DNA of 33,117 bases, from NCBI GenBank assembly GCA_002328295.1, contig DCXE01000045.1, positions 3,349 through 36,465 on the forward strand, in the 5' to 3' direction. The notes under the pieces are model-generated. The model had not been told where the DNA came from. It ran no database searches and saw nothing but the letters and a program-made list of their open reading frames with translations. Within the stretch, counting starts at the first letter, position 1, and each line of letters opens with the position of its first letter. Below are positions 1,445-33,078 of the stretch, in pieces. Both the position numbers and the translations under genes were made by a program. This DNA is from Candidatus Peribacter sp. UBA2144. Its GTDB lineage: Bacteria; Patescibacteriota; Gracilibacteria; Peribacterales; Peribacteraceae.

Positions 1445-1479
1445 TCGCTTTTAACAGTTAACAATTATTTTAAAAAGAG

Positions 1480-2241
1480 TTAATTGTTAAAAGGACGTGT
1501 AGCGCCCGTGTTAACTGTCAATTGTTTATTCGTGACACATTCAACTCCCTCATTCTTAATAAATTTCAAAAATGACTCAAGCTGTCCCCACATCTTATAT
1601 TTTTCAACTTCGTGGCTATGTCCCCACAAGTGAAAATAAGGTTGGTCGGTTTTTTTGGCATATGTGAACATTTCTTTGGCAAGACTGAACCAACTTGTGC
1701 ACGACTTGATCGAGATTCCAAGTTTTCTGATATCACCATATAACGCACGCATTGGACCGAAGTGATCAAGTGGATGCCACCACAAAGTCCACTTCTTCCT
1801 CCAAGGAAATGGAGTGATCTGCAAACTTGTTGGCATTGCCAAAGAGTCTGACGAACTAAACTTTATATTCTCCACAGTCCTTGCACCTTCAAACCCTGCA
1901 TTTCTGACCATCTCCTTAACTTCTTTATTAAATAATCCAAACGGATAACAAAACGATTTACATTCCTCGCCTGTAATTCCTTCAATCCATTTCTTGCTCG
2001 ATTCTATTTCCCACTTCGCTTCATCCAAGCTGACTTTTGTAAGTTTAGGATGTGTCATAGAGTGTGCACCAACTTCGTGTCGTGAATTCAAATCTTTAAT
2101 CTGCTGGGCTTTAAGCATATCTTTGTTGTGTTGCTCCTCCGGACAAATATAAAAAGTCCCCTTGCAATCATATTTTTCAAGCAAGCTTGCAACTGCAAGA
2201 TCCAATACATAGCCGTCGTCCCAGGAGGTCGTAAATAACAT
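1480..2241 (-). CDS. polysaccharide deacetylase family protein (NodB / CE4 domain)
   Basis: The SWDDG motif (TFDDG-like) and HSMTHP (H-S/T-x-x-H metal motif) are present at NodB spacing. The ATG at 2241 overlaps the upstream TGA by 1 nt; a TTG at 2244 is an alternative start. Confidence 0.8.
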   Translation of the reverse strand: MLFTTSWDDGYVLDLAVASLLEKYDCKGTFYICPEEQHNKDMLKAQQIKDLNSRHEVGAHSMTHPKLTKVSLDEAKWEIESSKKWIEGITGEECKSFCYPFGLFNKEVKEMVRNAGFEGARTVENIKFSSSDSLAMPTSLQITPFPWRKKWTLWWHPLDHFGPMRALYGDIRKLGISIKSCTSWFSLAKEMFTYAKKTDQPYFHLWGHSHEVEKYKMWGQLESFLKFIKNEGVECVTNKQLTVNTGATRPFNN

Positions 2242-14073: not shown

Positions 14074-14180
14074 GCATGCTGAGCCCGTCGAAGTATGCTC
14101 CGCCAATAGTCTGAGTGTCATCCTGAGCCCTGTCGAAGGATGACACGCCTGCCATGGTTCGACATAGCTCACCATGACAG
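14074..14180. repeat. REP/MITE-like GC-rich triple hairpin element
   Basis: Hairpins are gcatgct..agtatgc (14074-14098), gtgtcatcc-tgagccctgtcgaa-ggatgacac (14115-14146) and catggt-tcgacatagctc-accatg (14153-14176). It is nearly identical to 33005-33077. Confidence 0.85.
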
Positions 14181-15886: not shown

Positions 15887-15935
15887 TGCCCCCTGTATGT
15901 ACATTGTACATACAATAGAAATTGAGTGAATGAGG

Positions 15936-15941
15936 TATACT
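15936..15941 (+). promoter_or_regulatory. -10 box TATACT (tgaggTATACT), 8 nt upstream of ATG 15950
   Basis: gaatgaggtatactagccaccaATG. Confidence 0.5.
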
Positions 15942-15949
15942 AGCCACCA

Positions 15950-17635: not shown

Positions 17636-17674
17636 AATGACCCGATCGCTACGGATGGCAAGTGCACCCGCCTG

Positions 17675-17713
17675 CCCACCGTAGCTCGAAGCGAAGCGTA
17701 GAGCGTAGGTGGG
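17675..17713. repeat. REP-like GC-rich hairpin (cccacc ... ggtggg around gctcgaagcgaagcgtagagc)
   Basis: It shares the (c)tcgaagc/gaagg core flavour of the 14115 and 33005 elements. Confidence 0.5.
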
Positions 17714-17765
17714 AGAAGATTTATTGCGAGACTTGTTACTTGGAAGAAGTCTATTGATAGCCACT

Positions 17766-17865
17766 TGTCTGAACCATGATTAAAAGGATTTATGGATAGA
17801 CAGGATTAAGGATCTTTCCATGTAATCAAGTTAATCCTGTAATCATGTGAATCAAGGTTCAGACA
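17766..17865. repeat. ~100-nt inverted repeat tgtctgaaccatgatt ... aatcatgtgaatcaaggttcagaca
   Basis: tgtctgaacc (17766-17775) pairs with ggttcagaca (17856-17865). catgatt pairs with aatcatg inside. Confidence 0.7.
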
Positions 17866-17869
17866 GGGG

Positions 17870-17875
17870 TATACT
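17870..17875 (+). promoter_or_regulatory. -10 box TATACT (ggggTATACT), 8 nt upstream of GTG 17884
   Basis: acaggggtatactgatagtccGTG. Confidence 0.5.
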
Positions 17876-17883
17876 GATAGTCC

Positions 17884-19569
17884 GTGCAAAAAGCCTGCTC
17901 CAAGTGCGGCACTGGATTCGAGATCACGCAAAGTGATCTGGATTTTTATGACAAAGTCTCCCCAATGTTTGGAGGAAAGAAATGCATGATCCCACCTCCA
18001 AAATTATGTCCAGATTGCAGATTGCAAAGAAGGGTGGCATGGAGAAACGAACGGTTTATGTACAAACGAAAATGTGATGCGACAGGTAAAGATATTATTT
18101 CAATGTATCCTCCGGATTCTCCATTTAAGATCTATGAACAAAGTGTTTGGTGGAGCGATAGCTGGAACGCGCTTGATTATGGCAGAGACTTTGATTTTAA
18201 CCGTCCGTTTTTCGAACAATTCCGTGAACTACAATTGGAAGTGCCTCGTCTTGCGCTCGTAAACAAGAATAGCCACAACTCTCAATATACTAATCATGCT
18301 GGAGATAACAAAGATTGCTATCTTTCTGCAACCATATTTGAATCTGAGGATATTTATTATTCCGATTGGGTTATAGATCATTGTCGAGATCTGGTTGATT
18401 GTTCTTATGTGATGGAAGGATGTGAACTGTGCTACGAAATATATTACGGATGGGGCTCATATCAGGCATTCTTCAGTGAATTTACAAAGAGGTGCCAAAA
18501 CATTTGGTTTTGTTATGACTGCATGAACTGCAAGCATTGCTTCTTATGTTCAAACCTTAGAAACAAAGAATATTGTTTCGAAAACAATCAATTAACAAAG
18601 GAGGAGTACGAAAAAAAGATTAAGAGCCTTCTTCCATGGTCGCATTCGAACCTGAAGGAATATAAAACTAAGTACATTAAAATGAAGGAAGGGCAGGCTG
18701 TTCATCCAGCTATTTATCAGGTTCAATCTTTGGACTCTAGTGGAGATCTTTTATTTCAGACAGAAAACTGTCAACACTGTTTCGATATTATCGGATCAAA
18801 AGACTGCAGATACTGCCAAAGTGTAATAGACGTTAAAGATTGCTTGGACATATATCACGTTGGATGGGCGGAGTTAATGTATGAATGCCATGCAATCAGC
18901 AACGGATACCAATGTTTTGCGTGTCACTTCACATATGACAACTCAAATTCTATCTACTGCGATTGTACTCAGAATTGCAAAAATGTATTTGGATGCTGCA
19001 GTTTGAATCAGCAGGAATATTGCATAATGAACAAGAAGTATTCCAAAGATGAGTACAACTCTCTTGTACCAAAGATTATTGAGCACATGCAAAATACAGG
19101 TGAATGGGGGGAATTCTTCCCAATGGAGTATTCACCGTTTGCTTACAACCAGTCCAGAGCACCCGAATTTATTCCAATTACAAAAGAAGAGGCTAAATCC
19201 AAAAACATCAGATGGTCCGATTATGTTCCACCCGCTCCGGATTCCAATAAAACAATACTTGCCAGCAATCTTCCCGAAATGACTTCTGACATTCCCGATG
19301 ATGTACTCGATTGGGCAATCAAATGCGAAATTACATCAACCCCTTATCAGATAATTCGAAAAGAATTGGAGTTCTATAGGAAATCCGGACTTCCCATTCC
19401 ACGCAGACACCCCAATCAACGTTATATTGATCGAATTTCTATGAGGACCCCATGGAAACTCTTTAATAGAAAATGTGATAAATGCAGTAAGGAAATCGAG
19501 TCTACGCATAGCCCCGAAAAACCCGAGAAGATTTATTGTGAGAAGTGCTACTTAAAAGAAGTATATTAA
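17884..19569 (+). CDS. cysteine-rich protein, paralog 3 (GTG start)
   Basis: 561 aa. CSKC...CPDCRLQRRVAWRNER at the N-terminus and RKCDKCSKEI...IYCEKCYLKEVY at the C-terminus. It is closest to paralog 1. Confidence 0.85.
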   Translation: MQKACSKCGTGFEITQSDLDFYDKVSPMFGGKKCMIPPPKLCPDCRLQRRVAWRNERFMYKRKCDATGKDIISMYPPDSPFKIYEQSVWWSDSWNALDYGRDFDFNRPFFEQFRELQLEVPRLALVNKNSHNSQYTNHAGDNKDCYLSATIFESEDIYYSDWVIDHCRDLVDCSYVMEGCELCYEIYYGWGSYQAFFSEFTKRCQNIWFCYDCMNCKHCFLCSNLRNKEYCFENNQLTKEEYEKKIKSLLPWSHSNLKEYKTKYIKMKEGQAVHPAIYQVQSLDSSGDLLFQTENCQHCFDIIGSKDCRYCQSVIDVKDCLDIYHVGWAELMYECHAISNGYQCFACHFTYDNSNSIYCDCTQNCKNVFGCCSLNQQEYCIMNKKYSKDEYNSLVPKIIEHMQNTGEWGEFFPMEYSPFAYNQSRAPEFIPITKEEAKSKNIRWSDYVPPAPDSNKTILASNLPEMTSDIPDDVLDWAIKCEITSTPYQIIRKELEFYRKSGLPIPRRHPNQRYIDRISMRTPWKLFNRKCDKCSKEIESTHSPEKPEKIYCEKCYLKEVY

Positions 19570-20946: not shown

Positions 20947-21041
20947 AAGTGAAGAGTTAAAAGTTAATAGTGAAAAGTTTACTTAGATATGTCCAAATAG
21001 ATATTATAAAAAACACTATTCACTATTAACTATTCACTTTT
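20947..21041. repeat. word-type inverted repeat (agtgaat / attcact words); the right arm is identical to 30141-30168
   Basis: cactattcactattaactattcactttt at 21014-21041 matches 30141-30168 at 28/28 nt. The last codons and the stop of sufC lie inside this arm. Confidence 0.85.
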
Positions 21042-21788
21042 AACTTTATAGCCCTTTTCCTCCAATTCCAGCGCCAATTCTGGACCTCCGCTATCAGCAA
21101 TTCTCCCATCAATCACCATATGCACACGGTCTGGCTTAACGTAATCAAGAATCCGCGCATAATGAGTTATGATCAAAAATGATCTTTCTGGCGAGCGCAA
21201 TTTTTCTATTCCCTCAGCAACTATTTTTAGCGCATCAATATCGAGTCCTGAGTCAGTTTCGTCTAACAAAGCAAATTTGGGTTCTAATACAAGCATCTGC
21301 AGCATCTCTGCTTTTTTCTTTTCTCCTCCGGAGAATCCTTCATTTACTGACCTATCGCAAAAATTATGATCCATACCAATCTCATCCATTTTTTGCTGAA
21401 GAAGTGCCTGAAAAGTTATGGGAGAAATCTCTCTACCATCCGGATGTCTGGCAGACATCTGCGCTTTATATGCAGCAAGTAGAAAACTTCTGAGTGAAAC
21501 TCCGGAAATGGTGCGAGGATATTGGAATGCAAGAAATACGCCTGCCTTGGCTCTCTCATCAGGTGTCATACTGAATAGATCTTGTCCTCTGAATGACATT
21601 TCCCCTGAAGTTACCTTGTAATCAGGATGGCCCATAAGAACATTCGAAAGTGTCGACTTGCCAGAACCGTTTGGACCCATAAGGGCATGTACTTCGCCTT
21701 GAGGAATTTCCAGATCAACTCCATGTAAGATCTCCTGTTCTTCAACTAATACTTTAAGGCCTTTTATGGAAAGAAATGAATTGATAAT
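21030..21788 (-). CDS. sufC: Fe-S cluster assembly ATPase SufC; 5' end uncertain (no ATG/GTG/TTG upstream of the conserved N-terminus; ATT at 21788 or ATC at 21785 possible)
   Basis: Walker A GPNGSGKST, signature FSGGEKKKAEMLQM, Walker B LALLDETDSGLD. Homology to the E. coli SufC N-terminus (MLSIKDLHV...) continues as SFLSIKGLKVLVEEQEILHGVDLEIPQGEVHAL, upstream of the first ATG (21680). Confidence 0.88.
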   Translation of the reverse strand: MINSFLSIKGLKVLVEEQEILHGVDLEIPQGEVHALMGPNGSGKSTLSNVLMGHPDYKVTSGEMSFRGQDLFSMTPDERAKAGVFLAFQYPRTISGVSLRSFLLAAYKAQMSARHPDGREISPITFQALLQQKMDEIGMDHNFCDRSVNEGFSGGEKKKAEMLQMLVLEPKFALLDETDSGLDIDALKIVAEGIEKLRSPERSFLIITHYARILDYVKPDRVHMVIDGRIADSGGPELALELEEKGYKVKSE

Positions 21789-21857
21789 TGAGAATTGATA
21801 ATTGATAATAGTAATCCAATTCTCAATTCTTCATTCTCAATTCTCAATTCTCAATTC
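21781..21857. repeat. word-type inverted repeat (ttgataat/tgagaat vs attctca words)
   Basis: ttgataattgagaattgataattgataa faces caattctcaattcttcattctcaattctcaattctcaattc. Confidence 0.8.
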
Positions 21858-21864
21858 AGTATTT

Positions 21865-22428
21865 ATGACTCTGACTATCCCACAACTTCAGGACAAGCTT
21901 AAAGAATGGAAAGGCTGTGAGCTTGCAAAGAACGCTAATCCCGTATTGGGTGAAGGTAATCCTAATGCTGACATAATGTTTATCGGAGAAGCTCCGGGTG
22001 CGAAGGAGGATGAACTTGGTCGCCCGTTTGTAGGACCCGCTGGAAAGTTTTTGGATGAACTCTTGGAATCAATCGGTTTTAAGCGCGAAGATGTTTATAT
22101 TTCCAACGTAGTTAAATATAGACCTCCAAACAACCGCGATCCTCTTCCAGAGGAAAAGGAACAATGCATGCCATGGTTAAAGATGGAGATTGCTCTTATT
22201 AAACCTAAGGTGATTGTCCCGCTTGGCAGACACGCACTCCAGCACTTCTTTCAGAAATTAAGTATTACAAATGCACATGGGAAACCTCAAAAGATGAATG
22301 ACGATGTGACGGTTTTTCCAATCTATCACCCAGCCGCCGCACTCCATAATGGGAATCTGAGGCAGGCTTTGTTCGATGACTTCAGCGCCCTAAAGAAGTT
22401 TCTGGATGAAAACGGTCGAGCGAATTGA
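21865..22428 (+). CDS. uracil-DNA glycosylase, family 4
   Basis: GEGNPNADIMFIGEAPGAKEDELGRPFVGPAGKFLD and the IYHPAAALHN motifs are present. The first 21 codons of the ORF-track entry are translated repeat, so the start is set at ATG 21865. Confidence 0.85.
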   Translation: MTLTIPQLQDKLKEWKGCELAKNANPVLGEGNPNADIMFIGEAPGAKEDELGRPFVGPAGKFLDELLESIGFKREDVYISNVVKYRPPNNRDPLPEEKEQCMPWLKMEIALIKPKVIVPLGRHALQHFFQKLSITNAHGKPQKMNDDVTVFPIYHPAAALHNGNLRQALFDDFSALKKFLDENGRAN

Positions 22429-22487
22429 AAATTGTAAGTGGAAAGTGGAAAATCATTTTCCATTTACCACTTTCAACTTTCAATTTA
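22429..22487. repeat. word-type hairpin (gtggaaa / tttccac words)
   Basis: aaattgtaagtggaaagtggaaaatc faces attttccatttaccactttcaactttcaattt. Confidence 0.85.
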
Positions 22488-22488
22488 T

Positions 22489-22851
22489 CTAATGATCTAG
22501 CGCCACCTCCACCAACACCGACACAGCAACAATTAGCACCCCGATCCACCAGTTAAGCAAATTCAGTTGATGAAATAGAACTATTACAGTCAAGCTAATG
22601 CCAAGTAGGATTCCTTGTCGGAGGGAGATGCTTGTTAACTTTCCCATATCCCACATATGGGTTGGCACCATTCTCCAAATACCAATAAAGCAAAGTGCTC
22701 CAACTGTACTAACTGTCAAAAAGAAACTTAGGAAGAAAGCAGGAATAGCCTGAGCAGGCGCAGTTAGCGGACTGACGCGTAAAAGGACCACAAGAAGAGA
22801 AGTGGAAGAGAAGAGAGCCGAGAGGATTATTCCAAATAGAAGCGTGTTCAA
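22489..22851 (-). CDS. small integral membrane protein (4 predicted TM), TTG start
   Basis: 120 aa and almost entirely hydrophobic. It is bracketed by 32-nt direct repeats (22455-22487 and 22931-22962). Confidence 0.5.
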   Translation of the reverse strand: MNTLLFGIILSALFSSTSLLVVLLRVSPLTAPAQAIPAFFLSFFLTVSTVGALCFIGIWRMVPTHMWDMGKLTSISLRQGILLGISLTVIVLFHQLNLLNWWIGVLIVAVSVLVEVALDH

Positions 22852-22860
22852 AGCTAAGTG

Positions 22861-22962
22861 GTAAATTGTAAGCGGAAAATGGAAAATGCTTTATCCATTA
22901 AGCAAAGGATAGCATTATACTCGCTTGCGTATTTTCCATTTACCATTTTCAACTTTCAATTA
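22861..22962. repeat. word-type inverted repeat; the right arm is a direct copy of 22455-22487
   Basis: attttccatttaccattttcaactttcaatta (22931-22962) versus attttccatttaccactttcaactttcaattta (22455-22487) shows 1 mismatch. Confidence 0.85.
22865..22870 (-). promoter_or_regulatory. -10 box TACAAT, 13 nt upstream of the TTG start at 22851
   Basis: The minus strand reads ccgctTACAATttaccacttagctTTG. Confidence 0.35.
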
Positions 22963-22973
22963 CATGTTTATAG

Positions 22974-22979
22974 TATAAT
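22974..22979 (+). promoter_or_regulatory. -10 box TATAAT, 11 nt upstream of ATG 22991
   Basis: tttatagtataattactatacaacATG. Confidence 0.5.
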
Positions 22980-22990
22980 TACTATACAAC

Positions 22991-24022
22991 ATGTCTAACA
23001 GTTCTAAATCCAGCGCCGGCATGTGGGCCGAATATGCAAAGAAAATAAAAAAGGTCTCTACCTTGAACGATCTGGAAGATATTGAACAGGAGCTATTTGG
23101 ACGCAAACAGGGCGTAATGACGCTTGCAATGAAGAAGTTGAAGGATTTAAGTCCCGATGAGAAAAAAGTGCAAGCAAAGGAACTTAATGAACAAAAGCAA
23201 ATACTGGTTGAGGAGCTAGAGAAACTACAGAATGATCTAGAGACTCCCACAGGAGACGTACTTGCCAAAAGTGATTCTATCGATGTGACTCTGGATCTTC
23301 CGGAAAAAGAACGCGGGCACCTTCATCTTATACCCGAATTTATAAGACAGGCAGAGGAAGTTTTTGGACGAATGGGATTTGATGTATTCAGAGGACCGGA
23401 GATAGAACCGGAAGAATACAATTTTGATCTTCTGAATTTTCCAAAAGACCATGCAGCGCGTGACTGGGCTGACGTTTTCTACATGAAAAAGCAAACAGCA
23501 CCCGATAACAGACTGACTCTTCGAGCACACACATCACCATGCCAAGTAAGATACATGCAAAAAAATAAGCCACCCCTCAAGGCTATCTTCCCAGGGAAAA
23601 CATATAGGAAAGACGATGACGCAACGCACTCTCCAATGTTTCATCAGTTGGAAGGATTAATGGTTGGTAAAGATATTACCTTGGCTAACATGAAGGCGGT
23701 AATGATTAAGTGCGTACAGGAACTAATAACACAGGATGCTGAATTTAGATTTCGAACCGGCTACTTCCCATTTGTTGAACCTGGGCTAGAGATGGACATG
23801 AAGTGGACCGGAGAAGATAAGACAAAAGAAGGAGACTGGCTAGAGATTGTAGGATGCGGAATGGTTCATCCGAATGTACTTAAGAATTGTGATATTGATC
23901 CCGACAAGTGGCAGGGATTTGCATTCGGATTCGGAGTTGACCGGATGGTTATGATCAAGCATCGAATTAAAAGTATAAGGGAGTTGTTCCCCGGGGATGT
24001 GCGCTTCCTTAGGCAGTTTTAA
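22991..24022 (+). CDS. pheS: phenylalanine--tRNA ligase alpha subunit
   Basis: HTSPCQVRYM, FRFRTGYFPFVEPGLEMD, GCGMVHPNVL and GFAFGFGVDRMVMIKHRI are class II aaRS PheS motifs. No pheT lies downstream. Confidence 0.95.
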   Translation: MSNSSKSSAGMWAEYAKKIKKVSTLNDLEDIEQELFGRKQGVMTLAMKKLKDLSPDEKKVQAKELNEQKQILVEELEKLQNDLETPTGDVLAKSDSIDVTLDLPEKERGHLHLIPEFIRQAEEVFGRMGFDVFRGPEIEPEEYNFDLLNFPKDHAARDWADVFYMKKQTAPDNRLTLRAHTSPCQVRYMQKNKPPLKAIFPGKTYRKDDDATHSPMFHQLEGLMVGKDITLANMKAVMIKCVQELITQDAEFRFRTGYFPFVEPGLEMDMKWTGEDKTKEGDWLEIVGCGMVHPNVLKNCDIDPDKWQGFAFGFGVDRMVMIKHRIKSIRELFPGDVRFLRQF

Positions 24023-24033
24023 ATAAGAAACAC

Positions 24034-24125
24034 AGAGGAAACAGAAGAACCAGACGTTTCAGAGGAATTGCTAGAGTACTCTTCTGTTTCTTCTGCTTCC
24101 TCTGACTCCTCTGTTTCCTCTTTTT
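24034..24125 (+). terminator. word-type long hairpin (agaggaaacag...ctgtttcctct) ending in TTTT; probable pheS terminator
   Basis: The outer 11-bp stem is 24034-24044 / 24111-24121, followed by tttt. Inner agaagaa/ttcttct words also pair. The same word family recurs at 33079-33117. Confidence 0.5.
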
Positions 24126-25935
24126 AGCATAGCGAAAGCCGCCCAACCTTTCGGTCAGGCGGCTACGCTCCTAAATTGGTTTCAACCGTATCGCAGGCAC
24201 AAGGCCTTTGACCGGTTGTTTTTCAGTCATCAACGATGACCTTCGTCGTGAGACCACTTAGGTCCACGTCGATGACACTGGCCACCAGGTTCTCGTCGAG
24301 CGCGGTGACGCTTTCGATGGTCAGTCTGAACGGCACGCCCATCGCCAACGGTTCGGCAAAAATGTCGACCTCAACCCACCAATCCAACGGATCATCATCG
24401 AAGATGAAGTTTCCGTTATCCGGCCAGGTGAAGGTCAAGACGCCGTTAGCGGGTTGAACCGCATTCGACATCTGAACGGCTCCGCCGTTCCCATCGTCCG
24501 CCCAGATCATCGCGGCGAACACGTTCGTCAGGTCGCCTTGGACAGAGGAATCCGTTCCAATGACGATCTCCGTAACGGTTGAGTCGACCGGCGTCGAGTA
24601 GCCCTGGGCGTTGAGCGCCCTGATAGCTATGTCGCCGGGCTCCACTACCGTTTCGAACGGCATGTCATCCGTGATGACGAACACATTAGCCGGTAGCGTC
24701 GGCGGAACGGGCGGTCCGGGCGGTTGGACTTGCGGCGGTGGATTCTGAACCACCTCCACAGTGTCGAACTGAACGTCTCCGACGATCAAGTCAACTTCGT
24801 CACCACGATACGCTCCTGCCGAGAAATCGATCAGTACGTTGTACTCCGCGCCGGTTGTAATGGCGCCCAAGTGAGCAACGTAATCCTGTTCGATCCTGAC
24901 ATTCGACACGGCTTCTGTGCTACCCACCAACTCGACACTGACGGTGTTACCCGTCGCCACTTCCACAACCTCAGTTGAGGTAATGAACGTGGGTTCCATG
25001 TCGCCAGACGGAGGATACGTAACGTTCGACCAACCAATCGTGAACACCGCATCAACTACAAGCGGATCCGTTTCGCTGTGAACGAAACGCGGTGTTCCCA
25101 GGTGCACGTCTTCTTGCACCCGTTCCCCGACGTTCTGGTTGACCCGTTGATGCGCGACTTCAACAGTATACGCAAGCGGTTCAGGATCGTCCGCCGGGAT
25201 CGGTCTAGGCAAGGTACGCGAGCCGTTCGAATTGAGGTCGTTGATTATCACCAACACATCGATAGGCGCTATCACACCATCGCCGTTGACATCAAGCGGA
25301 TTACTCGGGATCGCTGCAGACACGTTGCGCGAGCCATACGAATTGAGATCGTTTATGACCTGCAACGCATCCAGAGGCGCTACCACACCGTCGCCGTTGG
25401 TATCATTTCGGCGTCCACTCCAGACACGAATCTGCTTCGCGGCTTCGTTGTTGCTCGGATCCGTATCCGTGCCGCTAACAACCGCTTGCGCAATCAGGTC
25501 GACCAGATCATCTTCCACCAAGTCTACGCCGTAGAGTGGAAGATAAACGGACGCGGTATGCCCGTCGGGAATGTTTCCGACGGCGTTGCGCAGTTTTCCG
25601 CCAACCATCTCCCATCCGGCATCCATTGCCGGAACGCCAAGCACCAACCCTGGGGGCAGATCCGCCTCGATTATTACGTCGTTGGACTGTCCGTCGTGAC
25701 TTGTGGCCGAAAGGCGTAAGTCAACGACGTGCAAGTTCTCGACGTCAATCGGGACGGCCCAACCTAATTCCAAGTCCGCCGCGAGCATCACACGATTCTC
25801 GAGCGGCTCAAGCAACAATCTGCGTGCCGCATTTCTACGGCATTTCGTGCGACGCGCGTGCAAACTGCTCGCGCTCGCAACTCCATTTGACGATCACAAT
25901 TGTCCCTTGTTACGCATGACTCTCATCCTTTGCGA
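24126..25935. other. compositional island (~55-58% GC in sampled lines vs ~35-42% in the flanks), single gene
   Basis: Hand counts of 60-nt lines give 58% at 24241 and 55% at 25261. The flanks give 38% at 12001, 28% at 28261 and 33% at 25921. There are no word-type repeats inside. Confidence 0.75.
24223..25863 (-). CDS. secreted-type protein with two dockerin-like (EF-hand-like) repeats and a planctomycete-style N-terminal RRLLLEPLENRVMLAA motif
   Basis: NDTNGDGVVAPLDALQVINDLNSYG and DVNGDGVIAPIDVLVIINDLNSNG are encoded at nt ~25225-25407. The N-terminus is MHARRTKCRRNAARRLLLEPLENRVMLAA. There is a PPPQVQPPGPPVPP linker, and third codon positions are G/C-rich, unlike every other gene here. 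Confidence 0.8.
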   Translation of the reverse strand: MHARRTKCRRNAARRLLLEPLENRVMLAADLELGWAVPIDVENLHVVDLRLSATSHDGQSNDVIIEADLPPGLVLGVPAMDAGWEMVGGKLRNAVGNIPDGHTASVYLPLYGVDLVEDDLVDLIAQAVVSGTDTDPSNNEAAKQIRVWSGRRNDTNGDGVVAPLDALQVINDLNSYGSRNVSAAIPSNPLDVNGDGVIAPIDVLVIINDLNSNGSRTLPRPIPADDPEPLAYTVEVAHQRVNQNVGERVQEDVHLGTPRFVHSETDPLVVDAVFTIGWSNVTYPPSGDMEPTFITSTEVVEVATGNTVSVELVGSTEAVSNVRIEQDYVAHLGAITTGAEYNVLIDFSAGAYRGDEVDLIVGDVQFDTVEVVQNPPPQVQPPGPPVPPTLPANVFVITDDMPFETVVEPGDIAIRALNAQGYSTPVDSTVTEIVIGTDSSVQGDLTNVFAAMIWADDGNGGAVQMSNAVQPANGVLTFTWPDNGNFIFDDDPLDWWVEVDIFAEPLAMGVPFRLTIESVTALDENLVASVIDVDLSGLTTKVIVDD

Positions 25936-26116
25936 AAAACAATGAAACCAATAATTTATAAGGAGCGGTACTTTACAAGTGCACCTTTCCTTTAATTACT
26001 GGTCAAAACCAAAAATAGACACACACAGTAAAGTCGATTATAATACCTCGAAACCTTGTTTTGTCAATTCTATTAGAATATACTATTTCTCCTCTATTCC
26101 GCTATTGGCCTGGAAA

Positions 26117-26767
26117 TTATGAGACTAACGAGATCTTCGAGAACCAATTCTCCGGATCTTTGGCAAATTGAGCTGCAATTTCAGCTTCTTCCTCTGTAAT
26201 TGAGCCCAATTCCGTGGCTACATCCAGAAGCTGAGGCAGGCCAGAAAGAGGATGATATTTGACACCAAATTGCTGTGCCTTCTCTGCAGATTTCAAGAGT
26301 CCATAATCAAATATTGCCACTACATCCGAAACAGTGGCTTCCCCTTCTTCCCGCAAAGCCTCCACAGCAGAGACTGAACTGCCGCCTGTTGAAATCAGAT
26401 CCTCGATAAGAACTATGTGCTTCCCCGAAGACAAATCCCCTTCAATTCTCTTCTTTGCACCATGCTCTTTTGTACTCTTTCTAACATAAACAAAAGGCAA
26501 CCTTAGAAAGCTTGCAACCAATGCTCCCCATCCAATTCCAGCACTTGCAGTCCCCGCGATTACATCAGGTTCAACATGCAATGCTCGAACTCTGGATAAG
26601 AGCGCCTGCACAACAAAGTCCCTCGCGTCAGGATGGCTATATACCATTCTATTGTCACAATATATCGGAGCCTTGATTCCACTTGTCCATGTAAAAGGTG
26701 GATCAACAGAAACTTTCACTGCACCGATGTTTAGAAGTAGTTCCGCGATTCGTTTGCCATGGGGCAT
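26117..26767 (-). CDS. pyrE: orotate phosphoribosyltransferase
   Basis: PRPP-binding loop HIVLIEDLISTGGSSVSAVEAL and the N-terminal FTWTSGIKAPIYCDNR motif. Confidence 0.9.
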   Translation of the reverse strand: MPHGKRIAELLLNIGAVKVSVDPPFTWTSGIKAPIYCDNRMVYSHPDARDFVVQALLSRVRALHVEPDVIAGTASAGIGWGALVASFLRLPFVYVRKSTKEHGAKKRIEGDLSSGKHIVLIEDLISTGGSSVSAVEALREEGEATVSDVVAIFDYGLLKSAEKAQQFGVKYHPLSGLPQLLDVATELGSITEEEAEIAAQFAKDPENWFSKISLVS

Positions 26768-26784
26768 AGGATTGGGGGGTAGAT

Positions 26785-26805
26785 CTTAGAACTTAGAACT
26801 TAGGG
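26785..26805. repeat. tandem word repeat cttagaa x3
   Basis: cttagaacttagaacttaggg. Confidence 0.7.
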
Positions 26806-26854
26806 ATTTGATCATACATCGACTGATCTCTCTTCTGCAATTGCCAAACTTTAT

Positions 26855-26880
26855 CTACTGCACTACTGCGCTATTGCGCC
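26855..26880. repeat. tandem word repeat ctactgcg(c) family (also at 7388-7412)
   Basis: ctactgcactactgcgctattgcgcc. Confidence 0.65.
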
Positions 26881-26895
26881 TATTATATAAGTCAA

Positions 26896-27609
26896 ATGAT
26901 CCCATCTGAACATGAATCAAAGCTCAGGCGATTAAACCAAATCTTCCTCGAAGAGAACCAGAAACTTAATCTATCCGCTTTCCGTGAGGAGGAACAAAGC
27001 TGGGTTGGAAATATAGAGGACTCATTATCAATATTAGACTCCCCTCTCCTTTTAGGAGAGGGTAAGCCTGTCCTGAGCGAAGCCGAAGGAGGGGTGAGGT
27101 CGTTAAAAATTCTCGACCTCGGCACAGGCGGAGGCTTCCCTCTCCTGCCCTTAGCCATATGCCAACCTGAATCTAAACTGACCGGACTTGATTCAACCAA
27201 TAAAAAAATCTCTGCAGTTGAACGAATTACAAAAGAACTTAGTCTGACCAATGTCGATCTGATATCCGGAAGAGCGGAAGAATTGGGACGTGATCCGGAG
27301 CATCGTGAGCAATATGACCTAATACTCTCGAGAGCAGTCGCGGGAACAAATACTCTTCTTGAACTCTGCGCACCGTTTGCAAAAGTCAAAGGAAAAATAG
27401 TTTTCTGGAAAAGTATGAAGATAGATAAAGAACTAGAAGACTCACTGATGGCAAGGGCAGAACTTACATGCCATCTGATAGATCAATATGAATATGAATT
27501 GCCGGAACCTTTCGGCAAACGCCAGCTTCTGGTTTTCGAAAAAACTTCTCCAACTCCAGATAAATATCCTCGCAAAATCGGCGAACCTAAAAAGAAACCC
27601 ATCACCTAA
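26896..27609 (+). CDS. rsmG: 16S rRNA (guanine527-N7)-methyltransferase RsmG (GidB), carrying a ~21-codon in-frame insertion
   Basis: DSL...ILDLGTGGGFPLLPLAI SAM motif, SGRAEELG, YDLILSRAVA. Confidence 0.88.
   Translation: MIPSEHESKLRRLNQIFLEENQKLNLSAFREEEQSWVGNIEDSLSILDSPLLLGEGKPVLSEAEGGVRSLKILDLGTGGGFPLLPLAICQPESKLTGLDSTNKKISAVERITKELSLTNVDLISGRAEELGRDPEHREQYDLILSRAVAGTNTLLELCAPFAKVKGKIVFWKSMKIDKELEDSLMARAELTCHLIDQYEYELPEPFGKRQLLVFEKTSPTPDKYPRKIGEPKKKPIT
27040..27102. repeat. REP/MITE-like palindromic element inside the rsmG reading frame
   Basis: tcccctctccttttaggagagggtaagcctgtcctgagcgaagccgaaggaggggtgaggtcg. It has a perfect 8-bp hairpin, ccctctcc/ggagaggg. The tcctgagcgaagccgaagga core resembles the 14117 and 33007 elements. 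Confidence 0.65.
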
Positions 27610-27638
27610 CCCTAGCCCTAGCCCTCACCCTAACCCTA
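27605..27638. repeat. tandem word repeat ccctag/ccctaa
   Basis: cctaaccctagccctagccctcaccctaaccctaa, overlapping the rsmG stop. Confidence 0.75.
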
Positions 27639-27642
27639 ATAA

Positions 27643-28221
27643 ATGCCTAAGAGATATACTCCAAATGATGAGCTGAGTCAGAAAGCTAAAGCCGAAGGCT
27701 ACCGCGCAAGATCAGTTTATAAACTCAAAGAGCTTGATGAGAAGTTCAATCTGATTAAACCCGGTATGACTGTTCTTGACCTTGGAGCCGCTCCGGGCAG
27801 TTGGTTGCAATACGCAAAAGAAAAAGTTGGACCTAAGGGCAAAGTTATCGGAGTTGATTTACAAGAAATTGAACCGATAGAAGGAATCGAAACAATCAAA
27901 GCAGATATAACCGAACCTACCTTACTTACCTTACCTACCATACCTAAATCTATTGACCTAATATTATCCGATCTTGCCCCCTCAACCAGTGGAGTAAAAG
28001 ACGTAGATCAGTGGAGATCAATAGAATTAAATCAGGCAGTTGAAAAAATTGCTGAGCAAGCCTTAAAGCCAGGAGGCGTCTGCGTAATGAAAGTGTTCAG
28101 AGGAGCTGACTTTGATGATTTCCTCAGAAGCCTTAAAACCAAGTGGGAAACAGTCAAAACAGCTCAGGTAAAGGCTTCGCGGGATAGGAGTCGGGAGATT
28201 TATATTCTGATAGCAAATTGA
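27643..28221 (+). CDS. rlmE: 23S rRNA (uridine2552-2'-O)-methyltransferase RlmE (FtsJ)
   Basis: RSVYKLKELDEKF, VLDLGAAPGSWLQY, ILSDLAPSTSG, VMKVFRG, ASRDRSREIYIL. Confidence 0.9.
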   Translation: MPKRYTPNDELSQKAKAEGYRARSVYKLKELDEKFNLIKPGMTVLDLGAAPGSWLQYAKEKVGPKGKVIGVDLQEIEPIEGIETIKADITEPTLLTLPTIPKSIDLILSDLAPSTSGVKDVDQWRSIELNQAVEKIAEQALKPGGVCVMKVFRGADFDDFLRSLKTKWETVKTAQVKASRDRSREIYILIAN

Positions 28222-28246
28222 CAATTGACAATGAACAATGGACAAT
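28218..28246 (+). promoter_or_regulatory. promoter-like TTGACA-N17-GACAAT, 8 nt upstream of ATG 28255
   Basis: TTGACA at 28218-28223, a 17-nt spacer, GACAAT at 28241-28246, then tacctgctATG. Confidence 0.5.
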
Positions 28247-28250
28247 TACC
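28218..28250. repeat. caattgaca word array, left inverted arm flanking the four-helix-bundle gene
   Basis: ttgacaattgacaatgaacaatggacaattacc is the reverse complement (imperfect) of 28641-28675. Confidence 0.8.
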
Positions 28251-28254
28251 TGCT

Positions 28255-28629
28255 ATGAAAAAAACAAACCCATTGCAGGTAAAGAGCTTTAAATTTGCAT
28301 TAAATATAATCGAAATTTATAAACAACTCATCAAAGAAAAGGAATTTGTCATGAGTAAGCAATTACTAAGATCAGGTACAAGTATTGGCGCAAATATTGA
28401 AGAAGCTCTACAAGCCCAATCAAAGAAAGATTTTATTCACAAGTTATCAATTGCACTCAAAGAAGCACAAGAAACTGGTTATTGGATCAAGCTGCTCAAA
28501 GAGAGTTCAATTTTGGATAAAGAGAAGGCAACAGATTTATTTATTCAAGCTAAGGAATTAATGAAAATGCTCACAGCTATTATAAAGACGTCTAAAAGCA
28601 ATATCCTTAAACAATCTATCGAACATTAA
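28255..28629 (+). CDS. four-helix-bundle protein (23S rRNA intervening-sequence protein family, TIGR02436-like)
   Basis: FKFALNIIEIYKQL...LLRSGTSIGANIEEA...KDFIHKLSIALKEAQETGYWIKLL is the family signature as I recall it. The start is set at ATG 28255 because the upstream codons are translated repeat. Confidence 0.8.
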   Translation: MKKTNPLQVKSFKFALNIIEIYKQLIKEKEFVMSKQLLRSGTSIGANIEEALQAQSKKDFIHKLSIALKEAQETGYWIKLLKESSILDKEKATDLFIQAKELMKMLTAIIKTSKSNILKQSIEH

Positions 28630-29456: not shown

Positions 29457-29603
29457 TATTTGTAATTTTCAATTTAAAATTTGCAATTTTCATTCAATTT
29501 TCAATTATTAATGTTTAATTTCTAAATAGTATGGATTTGGAAATTGTAAATTGGATCTTGAATGATAATTCAAAATTGAAAATTAAAAATTTATTCGTTC
29601 TCT
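29457..29603. repeat. AT-rich word-type inverted repeat (aattttcaatt / aattgaaaatt words)
   Basis: gtaattttcaatttaaaatttgcaattttcattcaattttcaatt faces aattcaaaattgaaaattaaaaattt. Confidence 0.7.
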
Positions 29604-30068: not shown

Positions 30069-30076
30069 CATTGATG

Positions 30077-30168
30077 AGTTAAAAGTGAATAGTGAATAGT
30101 TAATAGTGGCTGAAATGATTGGTTCTCTTTAGTAACTTTTCACTATTCACTATTAACTATTCACTTTT
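30077..30168. repeat. word-type inverted repeat (agtgaat / attcact words), same family as 20947-21041
   Basis: agttaaaagtgaatagtgaatagttaatagtg faces cactattcactattaactattcactttt. Confidence 0.85.
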
Positions 30169-33002: not shown

Positions 33003-33078
33003 TACTGTCATCCTGAGCTCTGTCGAAGGATGACAGTGTACGTTGTGTCATGGTTCGACAGAGCTCACCATGACACAT
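33003..33078. repeat. REP/MITE-like double hairpin, second copy of the 14115-14178 element
   Basis: ctgtcatcc-tgagctctgtcgaa-ggatgacag (33005-33036) and tgtgtcatggt-tcgacagagctc-accatgacaca (33044-33077). Each core differs by 1 nt from the 14.1 kb copy. Confidence 0.85.

What the first reader, a model, noticed from the sequence alone, without database searches (positions are those of the whole stretch)
24126..25935. ~1.8 kb high-GC single-gene island encoding a planctomycete-style dockerin-repeat protein in a low-GC CPR-like genome
GC jumps from roughly 35-42% in sampled flanking lines to 55-58% across 24126-25935. The island gene uses G/C-ending codons, unlike every other gene in the window.

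The 546-aa product begins MHARRTKCRRNAARRLLLEPLENRVMLAA. It has two repeats, NDTNGDGVVAPLDALQVINDLN and DVNGDGVIAPIDVLVIINDLN. The Arg-rich RRL..E.LE.R.(L/M)LA N-terminus combined with D.NGDG.V.P.DAL.VIN.LN dockerin-like repeats is a combination I recognise from large families of secreted proteins in Planctomycetota and the PVC group.

Both flanks carry native features: the word-type hairpin after pheS on the left, and the AT-rich spacer and pyrE on the right. The segment is therefore embedded rather than at a contig end.

It looks like a very recent, un-ameliorated inter-phylum acquisition, possibly an adhesion or scaffolding protein relevant to an episymbiotic lifestyle. The alternative is an assembly chimera.
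Basis: partly seen in the sequence, partly recalled or inferred. Interest (0 to 1): 0.72.

Follow-up and report, generated by a model that had tools for sequence, protein, structure and literature searches.

The report
Old foreign surface-protein gene in Peribacteria
A GC-rich gene for a calcium-binding "dockerin" surface protein really is embedded in this low-GC marine candidate-phyla-radiation genome, but it is an old, inherited and slowly fading import, not a fresh transfer or an assembly error.

Summary
A maximum-likelihood GC-rich segment spans 24132-25884 (GC 0.57 against 0.43). Its single gene (24223-25863, minus strand) has GC3 0.66, against 0.39 ± 0.04 for 28 other genes (z = 6.6). 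It carries a Pfam type I dockerin and a planctomycete-style Arg-rich N-terminal motif.

An assembly chimera is excluded. The same pyrE-gene-pheS arrangement occurs in at least five independent assemblies from three species-level lineages of marine Candidatus Peribacteraceae. A more distant relative has an empty pheS-pyrE site.

"Very recent" is wrong. The orthologues are 80% and 57% identical, and their synonymous divergence (0.5 and 1.2-1.5) matches that of the flanking housekeeping genes. dN/dS is 0.2-0.3. Synonymous changes run GC-to-AT 39:11, implying an equilibrium GC3 of 0.39, the host value. The gene therefore entered before these lineages split and is still ameliorating.

The donor is unresolved. 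The dockerin and N-motif best match Planctomycetota, but the C-terminal 320 residues are orphan. Sister GC-rich cassettes at the same locus combine the same N-motif with a Peribacteria-type S-layer body. Composition is only slightly closer to Rhodopirellula than to other GC-rich DNA.

The likely function is an exported Ca2+-dependent surface or adhesion protein; this is inferred, not shown.

The parts
24223..25863 (-). Coding sequence of the island gene (546 aa as read from TTG 25863; TGA stop at 24223-24225). GC 0.569, GC3 0.656.
   Evidence: ORF list; composition; orthologues P0002 (80% identical) and P0003 (57%) at the same junction; dN/dS 0.21-0.29.
25774..25824 (-). Arg-rich N-terminal motif RRLLLEPLENRVMLAA (aa 14-30), of the 'planctomycete extracellular' type.
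   Evidence: Pfam PF07595 at E 1.3e-4, 21.9 bits, below the 25.5-bit cut-off. The same pattern is at the N-terminus of all eight inspected top hits. It is conserved in L001 and L002.
25414..25773 (-). N-terminal beta-rich domain (aa 31-150), ending in a TDTDPSNNEA motif. No family assigned.
   Evidence: 63-77% identical among orthologues. It is the only part of the AF2 model with pLDDT 55-68, and is all beta strands. No Pfam hit.
25231..25404 (-). Type I dockerin: two Ca2+-loop plus helix repeats (DTNGDGVVAPLDALQVINDLN and DVNGDGVIAPIDVLVIINDLN).
   Evidence: Pfam PF00404 at E 2.8e-10, 40.7 bits, above the 22.9-bit cut-off. The best outside hits are 44-62% identical over this stretch only. In the L002 lineage the second repeat is replaced by a PPTD-repeat linker.
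24748..25179 (-). C1: the most conserved, orphan domain (aa 229-372).
   Evidence: 82-84% identical in both orthologue comparisons. No homologue outside the clade among 1.84 billion representative proteins. No Pfam, NCBIfam, PHROG or PDB match.
24688..24747 (-). Proline-rich linker NPPPQVQPPGPPVPPTLP (aa 373-392).
   Evidence: Read directly from the translation and the alignment.
24226..24687 (-). C2: variable C-terminal beta-rich domain (aa 393-546).
   Evidence: 90% identical to L001 but 39% to L002. It gives only weak, short hits (E 1e-6) to SdrD-B-type repeat proteins.
24137..24164 (-). GC-rich 3' stem-loop of the island gene, with conserved flanks GGAGCGAA ... TTTCGCTATG. A probable terminator or stabiliser that arrived with the gene.
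   Evidence: Conserved in all three lineages, with 4 pairs kept through changes on both sides. It differs from the native 'word-type' hairpins. The simple terminator scan does not call it, because the T-tail is poor.
24026..24125 (.). Native long 'word-type' imperfect hairpin between the pheS stop and the island. It marks the left border.
   Evidence: Repeat family D8; generic long-hairpin matches in Rfam; conserved between the window and L001.
26040..26067 (-). AT-rich sigma-70-type promoter TTGACA-16-TATTAT (11 of 12 matches) upstream of the island gene.
   Evidence: Promoter scan. Both hexamers and their surroundings are invariant in the window, L001 and L002.
25945..26005 (-). Conserved hairpin in the AT-rich 5' leader (GACCARTAATT...GCTCCTTAYAMATTATTGGTTTC).
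   Evidence: Present only upstream of the island orthologues. RNAalifold gives a consensus helix whose pairs are mostly invariant, so covariation support is weak. No Rfam family matches.
25894..25917 (-). Conserved SD+ATG (25917-25915), then 7 codons and an in-frame TGA (25896-25894). It lies 18 codons upstream of, and in frame with, the TTG start.
   Evidence: Sequence and alignment. The same TGA is present in L003 and L004, and a TGA at the aligned position in L002 and L005; L001 has GGT there. TGA is a genuine stop codon in native genes.
26842..26895 (.). Empty site for a second GC-rich cassette. Near-identical strains and L001 carry a 711-739-aa dockerin/S-layer-like gene here, between gidB and pyrE.
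   Evidence: L025 overlaps L003 at 100% identity and bridges window 26896 to 26841 with 2.8 kb of extra GC-rich DNA. The L001 gene 6715-8934 occupies the same position.

Best explanation
The segment is a one-gene remnant of a horizontally acquired, GC-rich surface-protein cassette region.

Origin and history. It was inserted into the pheS-pyrE spacer in the common ancestor of a marine Candidatus Peribacteraceae (CPR) clade. Since then it has been inherited vertically through at least three species-level lineages. It has been kept under purifying selection and is slowly ameliorating towards the host's low GC. The donor was a GC-rich organism with back-extrapolated GC3 of about 0.8 or more. The dockerin and N-terminal motif point to Planctomycetota, or to something that exchanges modules with them, but the donor phylum is not settled.

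Expression (inferred). Transcription starts from a conserved AT-rich sigma-70 promoter, passes through a conserved structured leader, and ends at the gene's own GC-rich 3' stem-loop.

Function (inferred). The product has an Arg-rich N-terminal export-type motif, a beta-sandwich domain, a Ca2+-binding type I dockerin, a conserved orphan domain (C1), a proline linker and a variable C-terminal domain (C2). It is most likely exported and works as a Ca2+-dependent anchoring or adhesion protein on the cell surface. The conserved C1 domain, rather than the dockerin, probably carries the function shared by all lineages.

Shown versus inferred. Shown: the compositional anomaly, embedding, orthology, co-divergence, purifying selection, directional decay, the empty site and the domain calls. 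Inferred: the donor, export, surface location and adhesion role.
For: Foreign composition:
- GC3 0.656 against 0.393 ± 0.040, z = 6.6.
- RSCU correlation with the host r = -0.08. Tetranucleotide correlation with the host r = 0.11-0.13, while host versus relative gives r = 0.84.

Not an artefact:
- The identical junctions occur in the NCBI UBA MAG (L003), a TARA scaffold (L004), JGI 3300022225 (L001), ENA SCRA20-1 (L002) and a GTDB Peribacteria MAG (L005).
- The three protein clusters hold 25 distinct sequences from NCBI, ENA, JGI and Logan. NCBI names two of them as Candidatus Peribacteraceae proteins.

Single old insertion:
- The promoter, leader and 3' stem-loop are conserved in all three lineages.
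- L007 (pheS 70% identical) has pheS and pyrE only 305 bp apart, with the surrounding purE-UDG-pheS-pyrE-gidB-ftsJ-ABC synteny intact.

Vertical inheritance:
- Island dS is 0.51 (window vs L001) and 1.16-1.46 (vs L002). The flanks give 0.24-0.92 and 0.94-2.9.
- Island dN/dS is 0.21-0.29.

Amelioration:
- Polarised synonymous changes run GC-to-AT 39 against AT-to-GC 11. The flanks give 94 against 112 (Fisher p = 3e-5).
- A stationary-model simulation that includes the parsimony artefact expects a GC-to-AT fraction of 0.61; the observed fraction is 0.78 (P = 0.011).
- Per-site rates equal those of the flanks. The implied equilibrium GC3 is 0.39 (CI 0.21-0.54), equal to the host's GC3.

Protein and vector:
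- Dockerin_1 is above its curated cut-off.
- All eight inspected top outside hits carry the same N-motif and near-identical dockerin repeats. The only named outside hits are Planctomycetales, Rhodopirellula and Pirellulales.
- No relative was found in phages, plasmids or viral contigs.
Against: - No full-length homologue exists outside the clade. The C-terminal 320 residues are orphan in an exhaustive profile search, so no donor gene has been identified.
- Planc_extracel is below Pfam's cut-off and is not detected in P0002.
- GC-rich non-planctomycete controls correlate with the island almost as well as Rhodopirellula does. Tetranucleotide r is 0.47-0.61 against 0.58-0.70, and RSCU r is 0.49-0.57 against 0.70.
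- The sister GC-rich cassettes carry the same kind of N-motif fused to a body found only in Peregrinibacteria/Peribacteria SLH proteins. This does not fit a simple planctomycete-to-CPR transfer.
- No mobility gene, tRNA or direct repeat marks the borders.
- The N-terminus has no classical hydrophobic signal peptide. In two lineages an in-frame TGA separates the conserved ATG from the motif, so export is unproven.
- The dockerin has decayed in the L002 lineage.
- The amelioration test rests on three taxa and 50 polarised changes.
- The structure prediction failed, with mean pLDDT 33.
Confidence: 0.72

Rival explanations
1. One reading: a very recent, essentially un-ameliorated transfer from a planctomycete into this one genome.
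For: The compositional contrast is strong. The top dockerin and N-motif hits are planctomycete proteins. RSCU correlation is highest with a Rhodopirellula locus, r = 0.70.
Against: Orthologues at 80% and 57% identity occupy the identical site, with conserved non-coding flanks, in two other species-level lineages. Their dS equals that of the flanking genes, reaching about 1.5. GC-to-AT decay is measurable. No planctomycete protein matches beyond about 60-170 residues.
Confidence: 0.04
2. An assembly or binning chimera: a fragment of a GC-rich organism mis-joined into a CPR contig.
For: GC changes sharply at both borders. The window does differ from every other assembly about 2.4 kb to the left, at ~21768, next to a repeat-like hairpin. 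Mis-joins in this contig are therefore conceivable.
Against: The same pyrE-gene-pheS junctions were recovered in at least five assemblies, made by different groups from different samples. They differ in sequence by 0.1-40% and are co-linear with the flanks. The AT-rich promoter and leader and the 3' element co-evolve with the gene.
Confidence: 0.01
3. A native lineage-specific surface-protein family. Its high GC is maintained in situ, for example by selection on very highly expressed S-layer-associated genes or by GC-biased gene conversion at a recombination hot spot, rather than imported.
For: - The sister GC-rich cassettes contain a body homologous only to Peregrinibacteria/Peribacteria SLH proteins.
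- All cassettes share an N-motif and have their own native-looking AT-rich promoters.
- The locus shows presence/absence polymorphism and a local mismatch cluster, which suggests recombination.
- GC3 is still 0.66-0.72 after dS of about 1.2-1.5.
Against: - Synonymous flux is 39:11 towards AT. The implied equilibrium GC3 is 0.39, not 0.66, so nothing is holding GC up.
- In another Peribacteria-like genome (L024) the SLH homologue is compositionally ordinary.
- The site is empty in L007.
- The window's own protein shows no similarity to the S-layer family.
Confidence: 0.1
4. The history is the same (old import, vertically inherited), but the donor was not a planctomycete. It was an unsampled GC-rich CPR/Peregrinibacteria relative, or a third party, in which S-layer-type bodies, dockerins and the Arg-rich motif already coexisted.
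For: The 739-aa and 953-aa cassettes are uniformly GC-rich along their length, including the Peribacteria-type body. Some Peribacteria are GC-rich by name, such as RIFOXYA2_FULL_55_28. Composition does not discriminate planctomycetes from other GC-rich DNA.
Against: None of the 49 SLH-family homologues carries a dockerin or the Arg-rich motif; they have Sec signal peptides and SLH anchors. All named outside hits to the window protein are Planctomycetota and share both the N-motif and the dockerin type.
Confidence: 0.3

Closest known systems
Planctomycete extracellular dockerin proteins, which combine an N-terminal PF07595-type motif with a PF00404 dockerin. Examples: the Rhodopirellula bahusiensis 'dockerin type I domain-containing protein' (P0009) and the Planctomycetales MAG protein KDB03_06255 (P0004).
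   Same: Both have an Arg-rich N-terminus followed by R.L..E.LE.R..LA. Both have two DVNGDG..P.DAL.VIN.LN dockerin repeats, 44-62% identical to the window's. The genes are GC-rich with NCG- and TTG-rich codon usage. Both have beta-sandwich-type accessory domains.
   Different: In the planctomycete proteins the dockerin is near the C-terminus of 550-950-aa proteins with SdrD_B, cadherin-like or other known modules. Here it is at residues 154-211, followed by 330 orphan residues. No alignment extends beyond the motif and dockerin. The host is a CPR bacterium.
Cellulosomal type I dockerins of Clostridia (for example PDB 6kg9, the CelL-orthologue dockerin).
   Same: Both match the same Pfam family, with a duplicated Ca2+-binding loop-helix and D/N residues at loop positions 1, 3, 5 and 12 (read directly from the sequence).
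   Different: The sequence match to solved dockerins is only marginal, at E 0.13-0.42. There is no catalytic or carbohydrate-binding module, and no cohesin partner was identified in the DNA available. Non-cellulosomal roles for planctomycete cohesin-dockerin pairs have been proposed, as the 'planctosome' (PMC6461901).
Classical ameliorating horizontally acquired genes. This is the Lawrence-Ochman amelioration concept, cited from general knowledge.
   Same: The base composition is atypical, most strongly at third codon positions. The gene is absent from the syntenic site in a relative. Substitutions drift directionally towards host composition.
   Different: There are no mobility genes, tRNA target or direct repeats. 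The insert is a single gene with its own 3' stem-loop, but it is driven by an AT-rich, host-like promoter and leader.
Peregrinibacteria/Peribacteria SLH-domain proteins of about 1400-aa (probable S-layer proteins; P0059, P0073).
   Same: They are homologous (31-36% over about 670 aa) to the sister GC-rich cassettes at this locus, the L002 953-aa and L001 739-aa genes.
   Different: They show no detectable similarity to the window's own protein. They have Sec signal peptides and SLH anchors and ordinary composition.

Membership tests
Type I dockerin domain (Pfam PF00404) | Profile match above the curated gathering score. | tested here: met
   40.7 bits against a cut-off of 22.9, E 2.8e-10, aa 154-211, covering profile positions 3-57 of 57. 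The L001 orthologue scores 41.2 bits. The L002 orthologue scores only 13.6 bits and fails.
Type I dockerin domain (Pfam PF00404) | Two tandem ~22-residue segments, each a 12-residue Ca2+ loop (D-x-[ND]-x-D-G-...-D) followed by a helix. | tested here: met
   DTNGDGVVAPLD + ALQVINDLN and DVNGDGVIAPID + VLVIINDLN, read directly from the translation. The AF2 model places helices at 163-177 and 200-213, but at low confidence.
Type I dockerin domain (Pfam PF00404) | Binds a cohesin partner, which gives it functional meaning. | not testable with these tools
   No cohesin was seen in the 33-kb window or the fetched loci. Whole genomes of the clade were not available.
Planctomycete extracellular motif (Pfam PF07595) | Profile match above the gathering score at the extreme N-terminus. 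| tested here: not met
   21.9 bits against 25.5, E 1.3e-4. Nothing was reported for P0002 or P0003. By eye the pattern R.L..E.LE.R..LA matches the N-termini of all eight inspected hits. This is a resemblance, not a membership.
Horizontally acquired genomic islet | Composition and codon usage deviate from the resident genome. | tested here: met
   GC3 z = 6.6; RSCU r = -0.08 and tetranucleotide r = 0.11-0.13 against the host.
Horizontally acquired genomic islet | Patchy distribution: absent from the syntenic site in relatives. | tested here: met
   L007 has pheS and pyrE adjacent, separated by a 305-bp spacer. L006 carries a different small gene there.
Horizontally acquired genomic islet | Identifiable donor homologue, meaning full-length and nested in another lineage. 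| tested here: not met
   Only the motif and dockerin match outside the clade. The profile of the C-terminal 320 aa found nothing among 1.84 billion representatives.
Horizontally acquired genomic islet | Mobility signatures: integrase or transposase, a tRNA target, flanking direct repeats. | tested here: not met
   No tRNA in the window. There are no border repeats apart from the native hairpin. No phage, plasmid or viral relatives were found.
   The gene is shared by three lineages. Flank dS reaches 0.9-2.9 and island dS 0.5-1.5.
Cellulosome component | A dockerin attached to a carbohydrate-active catalytic or binding module, with a scaffoldin in the genome. | tested here: not met
   No CAZyme or CBM domain in the Pfam or NCBIfam scans. 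The scaffoldin part was not testable.
Peribacteria SLH S-layer protein family | Homology to the ~1400-aa SLH proteins. | tested here: not met
   Profile-to-sequence comparison gives probability 0.5%, E 0.13. This contrasts with the sister cassettes, which score E 1e-83.

The most novel reading that the evidence does not exclude
The pheS-pyrE-gidB region of marine Peribacteraceae is a variable cassette locus. Its GC-rich surface-protein genes combine planctomycete-type export and dockerin modules with either orphan domains or the epibiont's own S-layer body. This pattern would be expected from repeated, possibly two-way, gene exchange between these CPR cells and a planctomycete partner. If so, the island would be the first genomic pointer to the host of marine Peribacteraceae, and its product would be a host-docking protein.
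Probability: 0.13. Interest if true: 0.72.

Novelty: new member of a known kind. Interest (0 to 1): 0.42.

Why it matters
CPR bacteria are thought to live attached to other cells, but the partners of marine Peribacteraceae are unknown. This surface-protein gene is foreign, has been retained for a long time and is under purifying selection. Its sister cassettes mix planctomycete-style anchoring modules with a CPR S-layer body. Together they give a concrete, testable lead about what these cells display on their surface and with whom they have exchanged genes.

There is also a methodological point. A striking GC island need not be recent. Here the GC3 gap has a half-life of about four tip-branch lengths, and it survived synonymous divergence of more than 1.

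The case also shows that a suspected chimera can be cleared without reads, by finding the same junction in independent, diverged assemblies.

Tried and rejected
- AlphaFold2 on the 3-sequence alignment gave mean pLDDT 33 and pTM 0.27. The model is unusable, so no fold search was run.
- An exhaustive HMM search with the C-terminal 320-aa profile found only the gene's own cluster, plus two weak repeat-protein hits (E 1e-6) that proved uninformative.
- PDB sequence search gave only marginal dockerin hits. NCBIfam, PHROGs and Rfam gave nothing for the protein, leader or 3' element.
- The metagenome-contig scan returned only the L001 contig again.
- tblastn against phages and plasmids, and a viral-contig scan, found nothing. 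No vector was identified.
- Exact look-up of the window's own protein (and of P0041) found no record, so the window's public contig was not identified.
- Literature searches found no prior description of this gene or of a Peribacteria-Planctomycetes association. They returned only the 'planctosome' hypothesis for planctomycete cohesin-dockerin proteins.
- I considered UGA recoding (code 25, as in related Gracilibacteria) for the in-frame TGA and rejected it. TGA terminates four ORFs in the window, including UDG, ftsJ and the island gene itself, and long ORFs are intact under code 11. The L001 GGT at the aligned position remains a curiosity.
- I tried compositional donor assignment. It does not discriminate once GC-rich controls are added.
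Full report
**1. The observation**

The window is about 42% GC. Only two stretches exceed 50%. One is a 5'-truncated 16S rRNA gene at 1-1250. The other is the flagged segment, where the 500-bp windows from 24001 to 26000 have GC 0.52-0.58.

A two-change-point likelihood fit over 22000-28000 puts the GC-rich block at 24132-25884, with GC 0.569 inside and 0.427 outside.

The block holds one long ORF on the minus strand, 24223-25863 (546 aa from a TTG). Its translation contains the quoted N-terminus and both repeats. Its GC3 is 0.656. The other 28 ORFs average 0.393 (sd 0.040, maximum 0.49), so z = 6.6.

Pfam calls a type I dockerin at aa 154-211, above threshold (E 2.8e-10). It also calls the "planctomycete extracellular" motif at aa 14-30, but below threshold (21.9 against 25.5 bits).

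The flanks are pheS (22991-24022, plus strand) and pyrE (26117-26767, minus strand).

**2. Host and independent assemblies**

A protein search found three full-length clusters: P0001 (about 100% identical), P0002 (80%) and P0003 (57%). Everything else matched only the 60-170 residues around the dockerin or N-motif.

All three clusters map to the same place, between pyrE and pheS, in independent assemblies:
- an NCBI UBA MAG contig (L003);
- a TARA scaffold (L004);
- an 82-kb JGI contig (L001);
- a 66-kb ENA scaffold (L002).

A GTDB representative titled "uncultured Candidatus Peribacteria bacterium" (L005) has the same arrangement.

The clusters hold 25 distinct sequences from NCBI, ENA, JGI and Logan. 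NCBI names two of them [quoted passage not shown]. Candidatus Peribacteraceae belongs to Candidatus Peregrinibacteriota, a CPR phylum.

The window is 99.6-99.9% identical to L003 and L004 over 21768-26841. It is 85-89% identical to L001 and 75-83% to L002, co-linearly through the island. An assembly chimera at the island borders is therefore excluded.

**3. Age of the insertion**

The orthologues are themselves GC-rich islands in low-GC genomes. The L001 gene has GC 0.567 and GC3 0.67. The L002 gene has GC 0.617 and GC3 0.725. Their neighbours have GC3 0.23-0.44.

Nei-Gojobori estimates give the following:
- Island dS is 0.51 (window vs L001) and 1.46 and 1.16 (vs L002).
- Seven flanking genes give 0.24-0.92 and 0.94-2.9 for the same comparisons.
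- Island dN/dS is 0.21-0.29, against 0.02-0.14 for the flanks.

The gene has thus co-diverged with its neighbours under purifying selection, although its protein evolves faster than theirs.

More distant relatives (pheS 70-72% identical) keep the purE-UDG-x-pheS-pyrE-gidB-ftsJ-ABC synteny. L007 has only a 305-bp pheS-pyrE spacer. L006 has an unrelated 165-aa gene there.

The promoter, leader and 3' stem-loop flanking the island gene are conserved in all three lineages. This argues for one insertion in their common ancestor.

**4. Is the GC contrast decaying or being maintained?**

I polarised synonymous third-position changes on the window and L001 branches, using L002 as outgroup. The island shows 39 GC-to-AT changes against 11 AT-to-GC. 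The flanks show 94 against 112 (Fisher p = 3e-5).

Parsimony with a GC-rich, partly saturated outgroup inflates apparent GC-to-AT changes. I therefore simulated a stationary model fitted to the data. It expects a GC-to-AT fraction of 0.61 (sd 0.08). The observed fraction is 0.78 (P = 0.011). The flanks fit stationarity.

Per-site rates in the island are 0.113 for GC-to-AT and 0.071 for AT-to-GC. The flanks give 0.088 and 0.067. The island's own fluxes imply an equilibrium GC3 of 0.39 (CI 0.21-0.54), which is exactly the host value.

The GC3 gap shrinks by only about 17% per tip branch. Back-extrapolation to the clade root gives GC3 of about 0.82-0.86.

The gene is therefore out of equilibrium and ameliorating at the neutral host rate. 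The persistence of the contrast does not imply recency. The sample is small (three taxa, 50 polarised changes), so this is good but not overwhelming evidence.

**5. Expression signals**

Upstream of the gene lies an AT-rich stretch that is nearly invariant in all three lineages. It contains:
- TTGACA-16-TATTAT at 26067-26040, matching 11 of 12 consensus positions;
- a conserved leader hairpin at about 25945-26005, whose pairs are mostly invariant, so covariation is weak, and which is found only upstream of island orthologues;
- an SD-like AAAGGA followed by an ATG at 25917.

That ATG is in frame with the ORF in all three lineages, despite indels of 23, 25 and 32 codons. In the window (and L003 and L004) a TGA follows after 7 codons. 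In L002 and L005 a TGA sits at the aligned position after 6 codons. L001 has GGT there.

TGA terminates four ORFs in the window, including UDG, ftsJ and the island gene itself. I therefore read the TGA as a real stop that creates a mini-ORF, with re-initiation downstream (TTG 25863 in the window). The true N-terminus remains uncertain.

Downstream, a GC-rich stem-loop at 24137-24164 with conserved flanks is kept through compensatory changes. It differs from the native "word-type" hairpins, one of which (24026-24125) separates it from pheS.

**6. The protein**

The architecture is as follows:

| Residues | Element |
|---|---|
| 14-30 | Arg-rich N-motif |
| 31-150 | beta-rich domain |
| 154-211 | dockerin |
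| 229-372 | orphan domain C1 |
| 373-392 | proline linker |
| 393-546 | domain C2 |

C1 is the most conserved part, at 82-84% identity in both comparisons. In the L002 lineage the dockerin has decayed. Its second repeat is replaced by a PPTD repeat that varies from 1 to 4 copies among strains. In that lineage C2 is only 39% identical.

Neither C1 nor C2 has any homologue among 1.84 billion representative proteins. The exceptions are weak, short hits to SdrD-B-type repeats. There is no PDB, NCBIfam or PHROG match. AF2 failed, with mean pLDDT 33.

The N-terminus lacks a hydrophobic signal-peptide core, as can be read from the sequence.

A role as an exported, Ca2+-dependent surface or adhesion protein is inferred from three things: the domain types, the architecture of the nearest planctomycete proteins, and the elevated but still purifying dN/dS. 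It is not shown.

**7. The donor**

For a planctomycete donor:
- Every named outside hit is Planctomycetota (a Planctomycetales MAG, Rhodopirellula bahusiensis, Pirellulales).
- All eight hits I inspected begin with the same R.L..E.LE.R..LA motif and carry near-identical dockerin repeats.
- Codon usage (TTG, TCG, ACG, CCG and GCG preferred) correlates best with a Rhodopirellula locus, r = 0.70, against r = -0.08 for the host.

Against:
- GC-rich controls (E. coli, mycobacteriophage L5, Pseudomonas phage D3) give RSCU r of 0.49-0.57. Their tetranucleotide r is 0.28-0.61, against 0.58-0.70 for Rhodopirellula. Composition says "GC-rich donor", not which phylum.
- No donor gene exists in the databases.
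- The locus holds further GC-rich cassettes that complicate the story. L001 has a 739-aa gene between gidB and pyrE. L002 and L005 have a 953-aa gene between the island gene and pheS.
- These two are distant homologues of each other (26% identity, E 9e-26). Both start with an Arg-rich motif of the same kind, and the 739-aa one has a dockerin.
- The body of the 953-aa protein matches only the ~1400-aa SLH-domain proteins of Peregrinibacteria, Peribacteria and Patescibacteria, which are probable S-layer proteins. The matches have E-values down to 1e-83, at 31-36% identity over about 70% of the query.
- Those SLH proteins have Sec signal peptides and ordinary composition in their own genome.
- The cassettes are uniformly GC-rich along their length.

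The GC-rich source therefore combined planctomycete-style modules with a CPR-type body. Either the donor is an unsampled organism that has both, or genes have moved in both directions. The window's own protein shows no similarity to the S-layer family.

**8. Locus dynamics**

A TARA scaffold (L025), from the same sample as L004, carries a 711-aa member of the 739-aa family. It overlaps L003 at 100% identity. It also bridges the window's gidB start (26896) to position 26841 with about 2.8 kb of extra GC-rich DNA. In the window these two points are 54 bp apart.

Of the 21 mismatches between the window and L003, 16 lie in the 128 bp next to this junction. Near-identical strains therefore differ by the presence of a second cassette, with a signature of recombination. 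The window carries the reduced, one-gene state.

No relatives were found in phage, plasmid or viral-contig collections. No tRNA, integrase or border repeats were seen.

**9. Verdict**

The feature is real and embedded. It is a horizontally acquired gene, but an old one. It predates the split of at least three species-level lineages, is under purifying selection and is still ameliorating.

The "planctomycete-style" description of the protein is accurate. The "planctomycete donor" is plausible but unproven.

In kind, this is a new member of a known class: an ameliorating acquired surface-protein gene with a non-cellulosomal dockerin. Interest is moderate. It rises only if the cassette locus proves to record exchange with a specific host.

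Noticed in passing
window 21768-21860: To the left of a word-type hairpin (21777-21858) the window differs from all other assemblies. L003 and L004 (99.6-99.9% identical to the right of the hairpin), L001, L002, L006 and L007 all have purE next to UDG. The window instead has a sufC-like ABC ATPase (21030-21680). This is either a strain rearrangement or an assembly join at the hairpin.
   Followed up: partly
window 26842-26895; L025:88-2863; L001:6715-8934: Conspecific TARA/UBA assemblies and L001 carry a second GC-rich gene between gidB and pyrE. It encodes 711-739 aa with an Arg-rich N-motif, a dockerin and an S-layer-like body. The window lacks it. The mismatches between the window and L003 cluster in the 128 bp next to this junction.
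   Followed up: yes
L002:12008-14869 and L005:9625-12486: A GC-rich 953-aa gene lies beside the island orthologue. Its C-terminal ~670 aa are homologous only to ~1400-aa SLH-domain (probable S-layer) proteins of Peregrinibacteria and Peribacteria. Its N-terminus is Arg-rich with a planctomycete-like motif in place of a Sec signal and SLH repeats.
   Followed up: yes
window 25894-25917 (also L003, L004; L002:~9890, L005): A conserved SD+ATG lies upstream of the island ORF and in frame with it. It is followed by an in-frame TGA at the aligned position in two of the three lineages; L001 has GGT (Gly) there. It is probably a mini-ORF or leader. Read-through or recoding was not excluded experimentally.
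   Followed up: partly
L002:~10560-10620 and cluster-3 proteins P0050-P0057: In the L002 lineage the second dockerin repeat is replaced by a PPTD repeat whose copy number varies from 1 to 4 among strains. L005 has Ns at this position, so it is also an assembly trouble spot.
   Followed up: partly
window 20947-21046, 21777-21858, 22450-22490/22852-22892, 24026-24125, 28216-28239/28643-28666, 29458-29590, 30072-30168: Many intergenic regions carry long imperfect hairpins built from short periodic 'words' of about 7 nt, such as ATTCTCA, CACTATT, AATTGAC and TCTTCTG. The word differs from site to site. This looks like a genome-wide native terminator or REP-like style.
   Followed up: no
window 28225-28629: A 23S-rRNA-IVP family gene (GC 0.31, the lowest in the window) sits between ftsJ and the ABC ATPase gene, bracketed by inverted AATTGAC-word repeats. 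It is present in the window and L001 but absent from L002 and L007, so it is a separate small insertion.
   Followed up: partly
window 14207-19569: Three tandem paralogous genes (559-561 aa) each end in a weak treble-clef zinc-finger match. A fourth copy of the 43-nt C-terminal motif lies in the spacer at 17713-17755. They are preceded by a VirD4/TrwB-like coupling-protein gene (11827-14070).
   Followed up: no
window 14116-14179 and 33006-33075: The same pair of 30-nt palindrome-like elements (TGTCATCCTGAGC.CTGTCGAAGGATGACA and TG.CATGGTTCGACA.AGCTCACCATGACA) is repeated 18.9 kb apart at 93-97% identity.
   Followed up: no
window 1-1480: The 16S rRNA gene (cut at its 5' end by the window edge) is followed by protein-coding genes on the opposite strand, not by tRNAs or a 23S gene. 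No tRNA occurs anywhere in the 33 kb. The rRNA operon is therefore unlinked.
   Followed up: no
L006:6065-7177: In a more distant Patescibacteria relative, a GAPDH-like gene forms a moderate GC bump (0.52-0.57 in a 0.47 background). It may be another acquired gene.
   Followed up: no
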